This document shows, piece by piece, positions 1,874 to 4,117 of a DNA stretch of 4,538 nt. Numbering within the stretch: the stretch's first letter is position 1; each line of letters begins with the position of its first letter. The notes beneath the pieces are model-generated. The model was not told where the DNA came from. It did not search any database and saw only the letters and a list, made by a program, of their open reading frames with translations. A program made the translations under genes and the position numbers. Source of the stretch: a virus (lineage: Duplodnaviria; Heunggongvirae; Uroviricota; Caudoviricetes); IMG/VR virus record IMGVR_UViG_2657245461_000004; one strand, given 5' to 3'.

Positions 1874-1883
1874 NNNNNNNNNN
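1874..1883. other. assembly/scaffold gap (10 N)
   Basis: Run of 10 n. Flanked by a truncated pinholin copy on one side and the first 14 nt of an endolysin-like gene on the other, so this is a contig junction. Confidence 0.95.
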
Positions 1884-1897
1884 AATGATGGCGACAT
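1884..1897 (-). other. 5' fragment of a second SAR-endolysin gene (MSPS-), cut by the gap
   Basis: ATG 1897..1895 overlaps the holin-B stop TAA (TAATG) and reads M-S-P-S-L/F before the N-run. As recalled, phage 21 R begins MPPSLRK immediately after S. SD-like GAGGTGA upstream. Confidence 0.45.
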
Positions 1898-2112
1898 TAT
1901 TCACCTCTCGCAGCCTTACGCTTGTCTTCTCTGATTTTGAAGTACAGATTTGTCAGATAAGTCAGGAAGCCCAGAACCAGACTCCCCAGTACACCAATCG
2001 CAGCCCACTGTGACGGACTGACCTGATCAAGCCACTGTAAAAACCAGTAGCCAGCACTGCCTGCGGAGGTGCCGTAGGCAATGCCCGTTGAAATTTTGTC
2101 CATGGATTTCAT
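1897..2112 (-). CDS. S: class II pinholin / antiholin, S21-type with dual starts (S71/S68), copy B
   Basis: 71 aa [71 protein letters not shown]. Two in-frame Met (M1, M4) separated by a Lys, a Gly/Ala/Ser-rich TMD1, a hydrophobic TMD2 and a basic C-tail. Essentially the phage 21 S21 sequence as I recall it. SD GGAGG 7 nt upstream of ATG 2112. Confidence 0.9.
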
Positions 2113-2243
2113 AGCCTCACCTCCGCAAATAACGGATGGCGTAGTTTTACACTGAGAAATGAAAGGGATTTGAAAAGAAAAAAACGCAAAAGCGGGCGAA
2201 ACGATATATACAGTAAGGAAAGCACTCTATCCAACAAACCACC

Positions 2244-2391
2244 CACAGTTAATCGGAATAAAAGCAGAGTGCTTATGAATGATCGCACGCCCGAAGGTTA
2301 GTATTTCTGCACAGCAATTTTGCAAAAAAAGGCGATCATTCATAACTTAAACGTCTTTCAGTCACTCCGGGATTTCCCATCATCGCAGACT
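2244..2391. repeat. 148-bp repeat, copy X (direct repeat of 2403-2550, 145/148 identical)
   Basis: Direct alignment with copy Y shows 3 mismatches (2287-2288 ac vs ct; 2331 g vs a). Contains a 14-bp inverted repeat (2273-2286 / 2332-2345, 45-bp spacer) and an 11-bp stem arm at 2353-2363. Ends at the N-run. Confidence 0.9.
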
Positions 2392-2401
2392 NNNNNNNNN
2401 N
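2392..2401. other. assembly/scaffold gap (10 N)
   Basis: Run of 10 n between two near-identical 148-bp repeat copies. Confidence 0.95.
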
Positions 2402-2402
2402 T

Positions 2403-2550
2403 CACAGTTAATCGGAATAAAAGCAGAGTGCTTATGAATGATCGCCTGCCCGAAGGTTAGTATTTCTGCACAGCAATTTTGCAAAAAAAAGCGATCATTC
2501 ATAACTTAAACGTCTTTCAGTCACTCCGGGATTTCCCATCATCGCAGACT
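2403..2550. repeat. 148-bp repeat, copy Y, immediately downstream of the tRNA cluster
   Basis: Same unit as copy X. Nested inverted repeats: 14-bp arms 2432-2445 / 2491-2504 (ttatgaatgatcgc) with 45-bp spacer, and 11-bp arms 2512-2522 / 2547-2557 (gtctttcagtc / gactgaaagac) with 24-nt loop. Confidence 0.9.
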
Positions 2551-2563
2551 GAAAGACTCTGAC

Positions 2564-2638
<75 letters not shown>

Positions 2639-2641
2639 ATA

Positions 2642-2717
<76 letters not shown>

Positions 2718-2719
2718 AC

Positions 2720-2796
2720 TGGACCGCCACCGGGGACTCGAACCTCGCACACTCAACTTAAAGGGTTGACGCTCTTTCCTGATGAGCTAGTGGCGG
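2720..2796 (-). tRNA. atypical tRNA-like gene, anticodon UUU (Lys) if functional; possible pseudo-tRNA
   Basis: Reverse complement CCGCCACUAGCUCAUCAGGAAAGAGCGUCAACCCUUUAAGUUGAGUGUGCGAGGUUCGAGUCCCCGGUGGCGGUCCA folds as a cloverleaf with a perfect 7-bp acceptor stem and anticodon stem UCAAC/GUUGA. Non-canonical features: loop CCUUUAA has C at position 33, the 5' end is C1, the discriminator is U73, and the T-stem has an A-C mismatch. Confidence 0.5.
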
Positions 2797-2797
2797 T

Positions 2798-2873
2798 TGG
2801 TGGCCCTTGCTGGATTTGAACCAGCGACCTGGCGATTATGAGTCGCTCGCTCTCACCACTGAGCTAAAGGGCC
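2798..2873 (-). tRNA. tRNA with anticodon CAU, most similar to tRNA-Ile2 (lysidine-modified, AUA decoder); Met not excluded
   Basis: Reverse complement GGCCCUUUAGCUCAGUGGUGAGAGCGAGCGACUCAUAAUCGCCAGGUCGCUGGUUCAAAUCCAGCAAGGGCCACCA. Canonical cloverleaf, anticodon loop CUCAUAA. About 90% like E. coli ileX as I recall it, with C4-G69 and C5-G68 acceptor pairs. Same position as ileZ in Stx-type phages. Confidence 0.8.
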
Positions 2874-2882
2874 GGGCGCAGG

Positions 2883-2911
2883 ATAATAACGTTACGAAAT
2901 CAATGTTGCAA
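2883..2911 (-). promoter_or_regulatory. candidate sigma70 promoter for the tRNA cluster
   Basis: On the minus strand: TTGCAA (2911..2906), 17-nt spacer, TATTAT (2888..2883). The first tRNA 5' end (2873) lies about 10 nt downstream of the -10. Sequence-pattern prediction only. Confidence 0.45.
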
Positions 2912-2975: not shown

Positions 2976-3004
2976 CACAAAAAACCCGCTTGTGGGCGGG
3001 TTTT
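2976..3004 (-). terminator. intrinsic terminator (tR'-like), potentially bidirectional
   Basis: Minus strand AAAA-CCCGC-CCACAA-GCGGG-TTTTTTGTG: 5-bp GC stem, 6-nt loop, U6 tract. The plus strand reads as a hairpin followed by TTTTGTTTG. Lies about 70 nt downstream of the putative late promoter. Confidence 0.65.
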
Positions 3005-3054
3005 GTTTGCTTTTGCCATCACGTACAAAATCGGCAAAGTATCAGATTTGCATG

Positions 3055-3083
3055 AATATATGCCTTTCAATCTACTTTTGCAA
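3055..3083 (-). promoter_or_regulatory. candidate late promoter (pR'-like) overlapping the 3' end of Q
   Basis: Minus strand TTGCAA (3083..3078, within the last Q codons), 17-nt spacer, TATATT (3060..3055) directly after the Q stop. This is the position expected for pR'/qut in lambdoid phages. Sequence-pattern prediction only. Confidence 0.5.
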
Positions 3084-3755
3084 CACTTTGCTTTGAAAAT
3101 GCCGTCTTTTTTTTGAACGTGTTCTCATTACAAACAATAAAGCCTCACTATCCAGTCGGTGAAAAATGTGTTTCATTGCAACCCAGTGACGAGTAAATGT
3201 TTTGGACCAGTTTTTAGTTGTCACTCCCGCCAGTAATGCCAGCTCCTGGTATTCATAACCTTCCCCACCAAAAAGTTCTGCTTTTACTGCCTGCGCCGCC
3301 AGCCAGATTAATTTTTTCAGGCGTTCCTGCGTTTTCCCTGCAATTTTTCTGGTACCGGATTGAGCATTAAATTCATTCCACGCCCACTGTGTTATCGCGA
3401 TCTGATATTCCCAACAAATACTCCCGCTGTAACACCACAACAACCAGGCTTTATAGTGCTCTTCAAGAGACAGAACAGCCCGCCGCCACGATGATGTCGA
3501 AAACTCAACCGGACTGACCAGAGGAATTGACGTCCCCTTCGCCAGCGATTGCTTTCCCGGGATTGGTGGATTATCCCGCGTTATCATTTTTCCAGTCACT
3601 TCATCGCGGTACCGGATTTTTTTACGCCTGTAACGCCCTGTATCGAACATGGCATTCTCTTGCCAGGCTTCAAGCTGACCTTTTGTTGCCCCACTCAAAT
3701 CAGCGGTGGCGATAATGAGCTGCTCACGCACAAACTGTAAATACTGGTTATTCAT
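3072..3755 (-). CDS. Q: putative late-gene antiterminator Q (non-lambda type)
   Basis: About 227-aa ORF whose ATG (3755..3753) overlaps the rusA stop (ATGA). The ORF track starts at GTG 3761. Position between rusA and the pR'/tR'/tRNA/lysis block matches Q of lambdoid phages. Several Cys/Trp-rich segments. The call is mainly by synteny; I cannot verify homology without a search. Confidence 0.6.
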   Translation of the reverse strand: MNNQYLQFVREQLIIATADLSGATKGQLEAWQENAMFDTGRYRRKKIRYRDEVTGKMITRDNPPIPGKQSLAKGTSIPLVSPVEFSTSSWRRAVLSLEEHYKAWLLWCYSGSICWEYQIAITQWAWNEFNAQSGTRKIAGKTQERLKKLIWLAAQAVKAELFGGEGYEYQELALLAGVTTKNWSKTFTRHWVAMKHIFHRLDSEALLFVMRTRSKKRRHFQSKVLQK

Positions 3756-4117
3756 GCGCACCCCAGTTCTGTGATTTTTATCCCCAGCCGCCCACCAGGA
3801 ACGAGCTGACCGCGCACAATATTGATTTCATCAAACTGCTCGTCGTCTATAAGTAGTCCAGCATGCGTCAGCGCATCCAGCGGTGCCTTCAGGATATTGT
3901 CCAGGTCACGACGGCGCTTATCCGGTGGCTCTGCAATAATCTTTATCGCCAGCCTTCCGGACAGGTTTAATTTCAGTCGCTGCTGGCGAACAATTAGCGC
4001 CACATCACGGCGATAACGCTCACCGGCTTTTGATACAAAATATGTGCTGCCACGACGTCGCCAGTAGGTGTTCACCGTTGGCGGGTAAGGCAAAACAAAT
4101 TCTATGCGTTCGGTCAT
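3752..4117 (-). CDS. rusA: crossover junction endodeoxyribonuclease RusA (Holliday junction resolvase)
   Basis: 121 aa with the RusA family pattern LPYPPTVNTYWRRRG ... PDKRRRDLDNILKAPLDALTHAGLLIDDEQ ... GGRLGIKITELG. ATG 4117 directly follows the upstream TAA (TAAATG). Confidence 0.9.
   Translation of the reverse strand: MTERIEFVLPYPPTVNTYWRRRGSTYFVSKAGERYRRDVALIVRQQRLKLNLSGRLAIKIIAEPPDKRRRDLDNILKAPLDALTHAGLLIDDEQFDEINIVRGQLVPGGRLGIKITELGCA

What the first reader, a model, noticed from the sequence alone, without database searches (positions are those of the whole stretch)
2403..2563. Highly structured 148-bp element immediately 3' of the tRNA operon
Directly after the tRNA-Gly CCA end the transcript would form an 11-bp stem (2512-2522 / 2547-2557) with a 24-nt loop containing GGGAAATCCC. 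A 14-bp perfect inverted repeat follows (2432-2445 / 2491-2504) around a 45-nt spacer that includes the palindrome TTTTGCAAAA. Neither hairpin is followed by a U-tract, so they are not standard intrinsic terminators. The unit occurs at least twice in the genome. Candidates are an RNA processing or stability element, a small structured RNA, a protein-binding palindrome, or a miniature mobile-element remnant. A 38-codon minus-strand ORF (2343..2227 in copy X) starts at the palindrome's ATG but is weakly supported.
Basis: seen in the sequence. Interest (0 to 1): 0.5.

Follow-up and report, generated by a model that had tools for sequence, protein, structure and literature searches.

The report
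Structured RNA trailing a prophage tRNA operon
The hairpins after the prophage tRNA genes are real and belong to a larger, conserved, apparently undescribed folded RNA of about 190 to 230 bases that ends a self-promoted tRNA operon in lambda-like prophages of E. coli and its relatives; what it does is unknown.

Summary
Both inverted repeats are at the stated coordinates. The "148-bp unit that occurs twice" is an artefact. It is the overlap of two contig ends joined by a 10-N scaffold gap, and complete genomes carry one copy at this locus.

The real element is larger and lies on the window's minus strand. It has three hairpins followed by an intrinsic terminator just upstream of the holin gene:
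- HP1: a 13-bp stem whose invariant internal loop fits the kink-turn consensus.
- HP2: a 14-16 bp stem closing a three-way junction with an invariant 9-nt loop.
- HP3: a hairpin with an invariant G/U-rich 3' strand.

Across 73 distinct homologues from Enterobacteriaceae phages, 97.5% of pair cells are paired. 32 of 60 pairs show compensatory double changes. On the 30-sequence alignment, G-U cells outnumber A-C cells 244 to 16, which places the structure on the sense RNA.

It matches no Rfam family, Pas sRNA or T4 stable RNA. The 38-codon ORF is not conserved. A conserved promoter sits just before the first tRNA.

Best reading: a stable non-coding RNA released from a prophage tRNA operon transcript. 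Its partner is unknown, and nothing here shows that it is expressed.

The parts
2883..2911 (-). Sigma-70-type promoter of the tRNA operon: TTGCAA, 17-nt spacer, TATTAT, then the G+C-rich discriminator CCTGCGCCC, about 10 nt before tRNA-Met/Ile2.
   Evidence: Promoter scan. The same hexamers, spacing and G+C-rich discriminator sit directly before the first tRNA in most of the 68 distinct upstream sequences recovered, although the sequence beyond -35 is unrelated between lineages.
2564..2873 (-). Array of four tRNA genes: Met/Ile2 (CAU), Lys-like (UUU), Thr (UGU) and Gly (UCC).
   Evidence: ARAGORN. Rfam tRNA hits of 44-72 bits. PGAP names the CAU tRNA tRNA-Ile in complete genomes.
2512..2557 (-). 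HP1. An 11-bp stem, a bulged U and 2 more pairs, then an internal loop GAUGA (2543-2539) opposite GA (2526-2525), a 4-bp stem and a variable apical loop. The internal loop fits the simple kink-turn consensus: a 3-nt bulge GAU, tandem G.A/A.G pairs, and 3b.3n = U.G.
   Evidence: I8. Consensus fold. The loop positions are invariant or nearly invariant in 30 diverse sequences, while the apical loop varies. Helix 1 has 8 pairs with compensatory changes in 73 sequences. Kink-turn rules come from PMC5061560 and PMC4382518.
2432..2504 (-). HP2. A 14-16 bp stem closes a three-way junction. The inner 8-bp hairpin carries the invariant apical loop AAAUUGCUG (2479-2471). A short second hairpin (CC-UUCG-GG) completes the junction.
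   Evidence: I4.. Helices 3-5 are 96-99% paired, with 13 pairs showing compensatory changes. The loop is invariant in the alignment.
2402..2431 (-). The 5' half of HP3 in this copy, cut off by the scaffold gap.
   Evidence: Sequence compared with the clean copy L001.
2392..2401 (.). Run of 10 N: a scaffold gap between two contig ends that overlap by 148 nt.
   Evidence: D2. Complete genomes have a single copy.
2244..2391 (-). Second, allelic copy (3 differences) of the 3' part of HP1, all of HP2 and the 5' half of HP3. It is the overlap of the neighbouring contig end, not a tandem repeat.
   Evidence: D2, 98% identity. Both alleles are found separately in other prophages. The covariance model scores both partial copies at 155-158 bits.
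2222..2272 (-). Complete HP3. An 8-bp outer stem, a 7-nt internal loop, then 6 + 4 bp inner stems. The 3' strand GGUGGUUUGUUGGAU (2243-2229) is almost invariant, and the 5' strand varies around it through G-U wobble.
   Evidence: Helices 6-7 have 11 pairs with compensatory changes. The motif was not used to retrieve the sequences, yet it is present with at most 3 substitutions in 80 of 86 variants.
2178..2198 (-). Intrinsic-terminator-like hairpin and U-tract (CGC-UUUU-GCG-U7) that ends the unit 66 nt before the holin start codon. This allele is degenerate. Other alleles have 4-6 bp stems (GCCCGC-UUUU-GCGGGC).
   Evidence: Sequence. 66 of 77 variants have a terminator-like site within about 115 nt after HP3, built from several unrelated stem sequences. 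The corresponding site is annotated as a terminator in phage HK639.
1897..2112 (-). Class II holin gene (context): the first gene of the lysis cassette downstream of the element.
   Evidence: ORF list. Annotation of the identical region in complete genomes and phages.

Best explanation
The finding is the 5' two-thirds of a conserved, highly structured non-coding RNA domain of about 190 nt, or about 230 nt with its terminator. This domain is the 3' trailer of an autonomously promoted tRNA operon carried as a 'moron' between the Q antiterminator / pR'-tR' region and the lysis cassette of lambdoid prophages.

Proposed mechanism:
1. Transcription starts at the conserved promoter just before the first tRNA. 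In lytic growth it starts at pR' with Q-modified polymerase. It runs through the four tRNAs and the trailer and stops at the intrinsic terminator before the holin gene. The promoter and terminator are shown at sequence level only.
2. The tRNA maturation nucleases (RNase P, and RNase E at the 3' side of tRNA-Gly) cut the trailer free (inferred).
3. The first stable hairpin begins only a few nt after the CCA: 6 nt in the window, and immediately after the CCA where HP1 is absent. The RNA ends in a terminator hairpin. It is therefore expected to be protected at both ends and to accumulate as a discrete stable RNA (inferred).
4. The invariant, non-structural sequence features point to recognition of a specific RNA or protein partner in trans, not to a role as a mere spacer (inferred; the partner is unknown). 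These features are the kink-turn-like loop of HP1, the 9-nt apical loop of HP2 and the G/U-rich strand of HP3.

The same HP2-HP3-terminator module is also found as the 3' end of small protein-coding morons. It therefore behaves as a portable 3'-end RNA module.
For: - Structure: the RNAalifold consensus has 60 pairs in 7 helices, and the single-sequence MFE of a clean copy gives the same fold, z = -4.7.
- Covariation, 30 diverse sequences: 96.9% of cells are paired and 13 pairs have compensatory changes, against 39.6-47.6% paired when the partners are slid by 1-3 columns.
- Covariation, 73 distinct sequences: 97.5% are paired and 32 of 60 pairs have compensatory changes, against 13.8 +/- 1.7 in shuffles (0 of 500 reach it) and 6-15 in slid controls.
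- Strand: 244 G-U cells against 16 A-C cells, and pairing drops to 78-90% on the opposite strand. The covariance model's strong matches are all on the tRNA-sense strand; the one antisense match is weak (15 bits, E = 0.014).
- Transcription unit: the -35/-10 hexamers, spacing and G+C-rich discriminator are conserved directly before the first tRNA, in unrelated upstream contexts.
- Terminator: 66 of 77 variants have a terminator-like site after HP3, built from unrelated sequences. It is annotated as a terminator in HK639.
- Sequence constraint beyond structure: the HP1 internal loop, the HP2 apical loop and the HP3 3' strand are invariant, while neighbouring loops and the opposite strand vary.
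- Independence from the tRNA: HP2-HP3 follows a 64-aa ORF in L146 and STM0906.1n in Fels-1.
- Spread: 540 of 5426 complete E. coli genomes. Also Shigella, Enterobacter, Citrobacter, Yokenella, Phytobacter, Salmonella Fels-1 and E. coli phage HK639.
Against: - There is no expression, end-mapping or binding data of any kind. That the RNA accumulates, and how it is cut, is inference.
- The diversity is shallow: the covariance model's effective sequence number is 1.18. Much of the covariation separates two main clades, so independent events are fewer than the cell counts suggest.
- Alignment A2 was fitted to the model's structure, which biases its pair counts towards that structure.
- No target was found. 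No complementary site exists in the window.
- The kink-turn is assigned from sequence only.
- In this window's allele the terminator stem is only 3 bp. In 11 of 77 variants my scan found no terminator.
- In HK639 the single-sequence MFE prefers an alternative hairpin to the main HP2 stem.
Confidence: 0.6

Rival explanations
1. A purely cis-acting end-piece of the tRNA operon. The hairpins serve only to help or protect 3' maturation of tRNA-Gly and to block exonucleases. Together with the terminator they insulate the holin gene from the constitutive tRNA promoter. No trans function exists.
For: The element lies directly after the last tRNA (6 nt after the CCA). The unit has its own promoter and a terminator just before the holin gene. 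Insulating a lethal lysis gene from a constitutive promoter is an obvious need.
Against: Insulation needs only the terminator, not about 190 nt of covarying structure. Loop and strand sequences are invariant beyond what pairing requires. HP2-HP3 persists where no tRNA is adjacent, behind small ORFs in L146 and Fels-1. HP1 is dispensable in several arrays where HP2 directly follows the CCA.
Confidence: 0.25
2. A non-functional relic. The sequence is left over from tRNA-gene recombination in mosaic phage genomes and is conserved only because the copies are recent. HP1 resembles the variable-loop and T-arm segment of tRNA-Gly.
For: Most E. coli copies are 95-99% identical. HP1's CUGCGAUGAUGGG...CCC resembles tRNA-Gly's GCUGAUGAUGCGGG...CCC. 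Modules are shuffled between phages.
Against: Clades that are only about 77% identical keep 97% of the pairs through compensatory and G-U changes. Homology stops sharply after HP3, while the flanks are unrelated. That is the pattern of a selected module.
Confidence: 0.1
3. A DNA-level element: a palindromic protein-binding or recombination site, or a miniature inverted-repeat mobile element.
For: Perfect 11- and 14-bp inverted repeats and an inner palindrome TTTTGCAAAA. The plus strand also folds well as a single sequence.
Against: The pairs tolerate G-U but not A-C (244 against 16 cells). This is meaningful only for RNA of one strand. There are 593 places in 540 genomes, a median of one per genome and none on plasmids. 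Every examined context lies between Q and the lysis genes.
Confidence: 0.03
4. A small protein gene: the 38-codon minus-strand ORF that starts in the 5' arm of HP2.
For: An ATG-initiated 38-40 codon ORF exists in both copies in the window. GenBank annotators called a hypothetical protein on the opposite strand in one phage record.
Against: Only about 24 of 77 unique variants keep a 36-38 codon frame. 29 stop after 10 codons, and length changes in the T-run shift the frame among near-identical copies. There is no Shine-Dalgarno sequence, and the start codon lies inside a 14-bp stem.
Confidence: 0.02

Closest known systems
3'ETS-leuZ, the 3' external transcribed spacer of the E. coli glyW-cysT-leuZ tRNA operon (Lalaouna et al. 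2015; cited from my own knowledge)
   Same: It is the non-coding RNA that follows the last tRNA of an operon. It includes the operon's intrinsic terminator. It is released by tRNA processing and acts in trans as an sRNA sponge.
   Different: 3'ETS-leuZ is about 50 nt, chromosomal and barely structured apart from the terminator. The present RNA is about 190-230 nt, prophage-borne, has three covarying hairpin domains, and has no known pairing partner. No sequence similarity was seen.
Phage T4 small stable RNAs rnaC and rnaD (species 1 and 2 RNA)
   Same: These are stable RNAs of 119 and 139 nt encoded directly after the last tRNA of a phage tRNA cluster. To my knowledge their function is still unknown.
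   Different: There is no sequence or model similarity: only chance blastn words and no covariance-model hit on the T4 locus. T4 is a virulent myovirus, and rnaC ends in a tRNA-like T-arm.
Prophage sRNAs in the Q-to-holin gap of lambdoid prophages: PasA/PasC/PasD, STnc100, AgvB, AsxR, Esr41 (PMC8550237; bioRxiv 10.64898/2026.05.13.724894; PMC4104026)
   Same: They occupy the same genomic niche: intergenic, between the late antiterminator and the holin-lysozyme operon. They are terminator-ended and vary between strains. STnc100 copies flank the element in Fels-1 and HK639-like phages.
   Different: There is no Rfam hit to STnc100, AgvB, AsxR or Esr41 on the element. There is no similarity to the E2348/69 PasA, PasC or PasD loci by blastn or covariance model. 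PasB was not tested. PasA and PasC are antisense to the late operon, whereas this RNA is sense and fused to tRNAs.
GOLLD and ROOL large ornate RNAs (cited from my own knowledge)
   Same: They are structured non-coding RNAs of unknown function that are typically found in prophages next to tRNA genes.
   Different: They are 500-800 nt and occur in Firmicutes and other non-enteric lineages. They are present in Rfam and are not matched here.
Kink-turn (k-turn) RNA motif
   Same: The HP1 internal loop has a C-G pair closing the C helix, a 3-nt bulge (GAU), tandem G.A and A.G pairs, and then a U.G at 3b.3n. All these positions are invariant or nearly so. With 3n = G the published rule predicts folding in metal ions alone (PMC4382518).
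   Different: This is a motif, not a family. It has not been verified structurally. To my knowledge E. coli has no L7Ae-type k-turn-binding protein, so any partner would be something else.

Membership tests
Intrinsic (Rho-independent) terminator | A G+C-rich hairpin immediately followed by a U-tract | tested here: not met
   HP1 and HP2 have no U-tract after the stem, and the scan calls nothing at 2403-2563. A separate terminator-like hairpin with U7 lies downstream at 2178-2198. Equivalent sites exist in 66 of 77 variants.
Rfam families (STnc100, AgvB, AsxR, Esr41, IsrK and all 4227 models) | A covariance-model score at or near the family's gathering threshold | tested here: not met
   No match at E <= 1 on the window. 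On the clean copy at E <= 10, only far-sub-threshold matches (12.8-14.8 bits against gathering scores of 38-70) touch the element. STnc100 is found by the same search in Fels-1, beside the element and not on it.
Pas sRNAs (PasA, PasC, PasD) | Sequence or structural similarity to the E2348/69 pas genes | tested here: not met
   blastn of 86 variants against the three E2348/69 loci gave only chance-level matches. The covariance model R1 has no hit there. PasB was not tested.
tRNA-operon 3' trailer RNA (3'ETS type) | Lies directly 3' of the last tRNA of an operon that has its own promoter | tested here: met
   HP1 starts 6 nt after the CCA of tRNA-Gly. A conserved promoter lies directly before the first tRNA. 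A tRNA-Gly 3' end lies within 110 nt upstream in 65 of 77 variants.
tRNA-operon 3' trailer RNA (3'ETS type) | Ends at the operon's intrinsic terminator | tested here: met
   A terminator-like site follows HP3 in 66 of 77 variants. It is weak (a 3-bp stem) in this window's allele.
tRNA-operon 3' trailer RNA (3'ETS type) | Released by RNase E/P processing, accumulates, binds Hfq and pairs with other RNAs | not testable with these tools
   This needs Northern blots or RNA-seq, RNase mutants, and CLIP or RIL-seq.
Kink-turn motif | C helix, 3-nt bulge, tandem sheared G.A/A.G pairs, NC helix | tested here: met
   Met at sequence level only. The arrangement is C26-G46, bulge G27 A28 U29, G30.A45, A31.G44, U32.G43, then three G-C pairs. 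The core positions are invariant or at least 90% conserved in 30 sequences. The consensus is taken from PMC5061560.
Kink-turn motif | Adopts the kinked three-dimensional conformation | not testable with these tools
   The 3b.3n rule (3n = G) predicts ion-induced folding (PMC4382518). This needs FRET, a crystal structure or chemical probing.
Miniature inverted-repeat element / dispersed intergenic repeat (ERIC-like) | Many dispersed copies in unrelated contexts | tested here: not met
   593 places in 540 genomes, a median of one per genome and none on plasmids. All examined contexts lie between Q and the lysis genes.
Small protein gene | A reading frame conserved among homologues | tested here: not met
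   The frame is kept in about 24 of 77 variants. It is truncated to 10-23 codons or frameshifted elsewhere.
T4 rnaC / rnaD stable RNAs | Sequence or structure homology | tested here: not met
   Only 7-13 nt chance words by blastn. There is no R1 hit on the T4 tRNA region. The position after the last tRNA is the same.

The most novel reading that the evidence does not exclude
The element is a new class of self-folding, kink-turn-bearing phage RNA that works together with the tRNA array it is transcribed with. The neighbouring tRNA-like gene has a hypervariable anticodon loop. The RNA could act as a decoy, scaffold or sensor in the conflict between phage tRNAs and host tRNA-targeting defence nucleases. 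That would make it an enterobacterial counterpart of the unexplained tRNA-linked phage RNAs (T4 rnaC/rnaD, GOLLD, ROOL).
Probability: 0.1. Interest if true: 0.8.

Novelty: new member of a known kind. Interest (0 to 1): 0.5.

Why it matters
E. coli is the best-charted bacterium. Yet about one complete genome in ten carries this covariation-supported structured RNA of about 190 nt, with no annotation under it in any record listed and no Rfam model. If it accumulates as predicted, it adds a tRNA-linked member to the growing set of prophage RNAs lodged between Q and the lysis genes that rewire host regulation. It would also be a genetically tractable example of a phage 'stable RNA next to tRNAs', a class whose function has stayed unexplained since the T4 species 1 and 2 RNAs. 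Practically, the result shows that the apparent duplication is an assembly artefact. It also gives a covariance model and coordinates that could seed an Rfam family.

Tried and rejected
- Rfam cmscan with permissive thresholds on the window, on a clean copy and on Fels-1. Nothing matched the element.
- Comparison with the EPEC PasA, PasC and PasD loci. No similarity.
- Comparison with T4 rnaC and rnaD. Same architecture, no homology.
- Full-text search for the three invariant motifs as DNA or RNA strings. No papers matched.
- Literature search for prophage tRNA-trailer sRNAs. Nothing specific came up.
- Search of the window for sites complementary to the invariant HP2 loop or the HP3 strand. 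Only the element itself appeared.
- The ORF hypothesis was rejected.
- The hammerhead idea for the CUGCGAUGA...GAAA-like string in HP1 was rejected by eye. The core does not match, and Rfam gives no hit.
- The riboswitch or attenuator idea was rejected by inspection. The spacer and terminator after HP3 are unrelated between lineages, I saw no complementarity between HP3 and the terminator, and the downstream genes differ.
- I considered pairing of conserved loops with the anticodon loops of the co-transcribed tRNAs by eye. No consistent complementarity emerged.
- The metagenome scan and the protein and structure tools were not used, because no conserved protein is involved.

Full report
**What the window is.** The genes run on the minus strand and form the late-control region of a lambdoid (Qin/HK639-like) prophage. 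In order they are:
- a DUF968/YdfU-like gene, RusA, and antiterminator Q (3761..3072);
- a pR'-type short transcript ending at a strong terminator (2981-3004; weak isrK/isrJ-like hits);
- four tRNA genes (2873..2564: CAU, UUU, UGU, UCC);
- the element;
- a class II holin (2112..1897), lysozyme and Rz.

The window also holds two runs of N, at 1874-1884 and 2392-2401.

**Checking the observation.** The minus-strand RNA of 2403-2566 folds to -51.9 kcal/mol, z = -3.5.

The claim that the unit occurs twice does not hold as stated. The two 148-nt copies (98% identical) sit on either side of the 10-N run (D2). In complete E. coli genomes the 801-nt stretch 2100-2900 aligns in two pieces that span only about 642 nt, so there is one copy. 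The holin gene is doubled in the same way around the other N-run (D1). The two copies differ at three positions, and both versions occur as separate alleles in other prophages. The scaffold therefore joined contig ends from two related prophages, or two alleles, and the tandem arrangement is an artefact.

**The real extent.** A clean copy (L001, NZ_CP065613) shows a 292-nt gap between tRNA-Gly and the holin start. Its minimum-energy fold has three hairpin domains and a small terminator hairpin (-75.1 kcal/mol, z = -4.7, 0 of 200 shuffles as good). In window coordinates:
- HP1 is 2512-2557.
- HP2 is 2432-2504.
- HP3 is 2222-2272, complete only in the other copy.
- The terminator-like hairpin plus U7 is 2178-2198.

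**Relatives.**
- The gap sequence is present in 540 of 5426 complete E. coli genomes. Most copies are 95-99% identical, none are on plasmids, and none of the 60 records listed shows an annotated feature under the match.
- Among deposited phages it occurs in four E. coli temperate phages. It occurs at 78% identity in HK639, beside a tRNA-Gly remnant and before an annotated terminator. It occurs in pieces in Salmonella Fels-1.
- Two exact-motif scans of IMG/VR and one of the species-representative genomes gave 77 distinct true variants. Named hosts include Shigella, Enterobacter, Citrobacter, Yokenella and Phytobacter.

**Structure and covariation.** On 30 diverse sequences (A1), RNAalifold predicts 60 pairs in 7 helices.
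- 96.9% of pair cells are standard pairs, against 39.6-47.6% when the partners are slid by 1-3 columns. 13 pairs show changes on both sides.
- A covariance model (R1) built from A1 recovered 94 matches, and its strong matches are all on the tRNA-sense strand; the one antisense match across both searches is weak (15 bits, E = 0.014).
- On the 73 distinct sequences of that alignment, 97.5% of cells pair and 32 of 60 pairs have compensatory changes. Shuffles give 13.8 +/- 1.7, with 0 of 500 reaching the observed value. Slid controls give 6-15.

Three caveats apply. That alignment is fitted to the model. The diversity is shallow (effective sequence number 1.18). Many changes separate two main clades. 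Still, the outer stem of HP3 alone occurs in at least five versions (CUCU/AGAG, UCUC/GAGG, CUCC/GGAG, CCUU/AAGG, UUUC/GAGA).

**Strand and molecule.** The helices contain 244 G-U cells but only 16 A-C cells. Read on the other strand, pairing falls to 78-90%. This places the selected structure in RNA of the tRNA/late-gene sense strand. It argues against a DNA palindrome or cruciform.

**Sequence constraints beyond pairing**.
1. The HP1 internal loop is invariant: C-G, bulge GAU, G.A, A.G, U.G, then three G-C pairs. The apical loop above it is free to vary. This is the consensus of a simple kink-turn (PMC5061560). With 3n = G, the published rule predicts folding in metal ions without a protein (PMC4382518). 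I could not test the three-dimensional claim.
2. The 9-nt apical loop AAAUUGCUG of the inner HP2 hairpin is invariant.
3. The 3' strand of HP3, GGUGGUUUGUUGGAU, is nearly invariant, while its partner strand drifts and pairing is kept by G-U wobble. This motif was not used for retrieval, yet it is found with at most 3 substitutions in 80 of 86 variants.

**Transcription unit.** A TTGCAA-17-TATTAT promoter with a G+C-rich discriminator ends about 10 nt before the first tRNA. The same hexamers, spacing and discriminator type are kept in most of the 68 different upstream sequences, although the DNA beyond -35 is unrelated. After HP3, 66 of 77 variants have a hairpin plus U-tract within about 115 nt, built from several unrelated stem sequences. 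The unit is therefore promoter, tRNAs, structured trailer, terminator: a classic moron. In lytic growth it is also crossed by Q-modified transcription from pR'. In this window's allele the terminator stem is only 3 bp.

**Modularity.**
- HP1 is absent in several arrays, where HP2 follows the CCA directly.
- HP3 is replaced in a few arrays.
- In Fels-1 an ORF separates HP1 from HP2.
- In L146 and Fels-1, HP2-HP3 forms the 3' end of a small ORF instead of a tRNA.

In every case a stable hairpin starts within a few nucleotides of the upstream gene's end.

**What it is not.**
- No Rfam family matches.
- It is not PasA, PasC or PasD, the EPEC sRNAs that occupy the same Q-holin gap.
- It is not STnc100, which often sits beside it.
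- It is not T4 rnaC or rnaD, which share only the position after the last tRNA.
- The 38-codon ORF is kept in about a third of the variants and is otherwise truncated or frameshifted by T-run length.
- The copy number and constant context exclude a dispersed repeat.
- No paper in the library contains the invariant motifs.

**Mechanism.** I commit to the following reading, with about 0.6 confidence that the RNA-level part is right. The trailer is cut from the tRNA precursor by the tRNA maturation nucleases. It is protected by a 5'-proximal hairpin and a 3' terminator hairpin, and it accumulates as a stable structured RNA. Its invariant loops recognise a partner in trans. Shown here: the structure, the strand, the conservation, and the promoter and terminator signals at sequence level. 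Inferred: processing, accumulation and trans action. Unknown: the partner. The main rival (0.25) is a purely cis role in tRNA 3' maturation and in insulating the holin gene.

**Verdict.** The element is real and larger than described, and it is probably a new family within a known kind (prophage-encoded or tRNA-operon-derived small RNA). The duplication is an artefact. Interest is moderate (0.5).

Noticed in passing
window 1874-1884 and 1688-2112: A second N-run is flanked by two holin copies (1688-1873 and 1897-2082, 88% identical). The first copy lacks its 5' end. This is the same contig-end overlap artefact, here joining two clearly different holin alleles. The scaffold is therefore probably a chimera of two related prophages.
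   Followed up: partly
window 2720-2796 (second tRNA); L006, L024, L057, L123, L129, L137, L146 and others: The second gene of the tRNA array keeps its acceptor, D and T arms across phages, but its anticodon loop is hypervariable. Versions include CUUUAAG (Lys UUU here), UUCUAAG, CCAGGUG, UAAAUG, UUUAUG, CUUGGUG and CAUAGUG. ARAGORN often cannot name it ('tRNA-???', 2-nt anticodon). It scores only 44 bits against the Rfam tRNA model. It could be a decoy or escape variant for anticodon nucleases, or a pseudo-tRNA.
   Followed up: partly
window 2883-2911: The promoter (TTGCxx-17-TATxAT) with a G+C-rich, stringent-type discriminator directly before the first tRNA is conserved in most of the 68 distinct upstream sequences recovered. 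The prophage tRNA array is probably expressed in lysogens, independently of Q.
   Followed up: yes
window 2979-3052 (minus strand): A short pR'-type transcript ends at a strong terminator (2981-3004). It gives weak, sub-threshold Rfam hits to isrK and isrJ (22.5 and 23 bits), the Salmonella prophage sRNAs. It is probably the local equivalent of lambda 6S / StxS.
   Followed up: no
window 2062-2071 and 2118-2127: A perfect 10-nt inverted repeat pairs the holin Shine-Dalgarno region (UGCGGAGGUG) with CACCUCCGCA, 46 nt downstream inside the coding sequence. It lies next to a dual-start motif (MKSM...). This resembles the known start-choice control of class II (S21-type) holins.
   Followed up: no
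L179 (Fels-1) 1910-2123, 2324-2446, 3447-3665; also downstream of the element in L003 (HK639), L072, L125, L126: Several STnc100 (RF02076) copies, each followed by a terminator, are interleaved with the HP1 and HP2 modules between Q and the holin. The late leader of these phages is a mosaic of non-coding RNA modules.
   Followed up: partly
L003 (HK639) about 2520-2545, minus strand: In the HK639-type clade an alternative hairpin (CUGACC-UUUG-GGUUCAG) competes with the top of the main HP2 stem and wins in the single-sequence MFE. A possible conformational switch.
   Followed up: no
L176, L177: Exact matches to the element occur in metagenome-assembled genomes labelled Fibrobacter and Defluviitaleaceae. 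These are most likely mis-binned enterobacterial phage contigs.
   Followed up: no
window 2798-2873: ARAGORN calls the CAU tRNA tRNA-Met. PGAP annotates the identical gene as tRNA-Ile (the lysidine-modified Ile2 type) in complete genomes.
   Followed up: no
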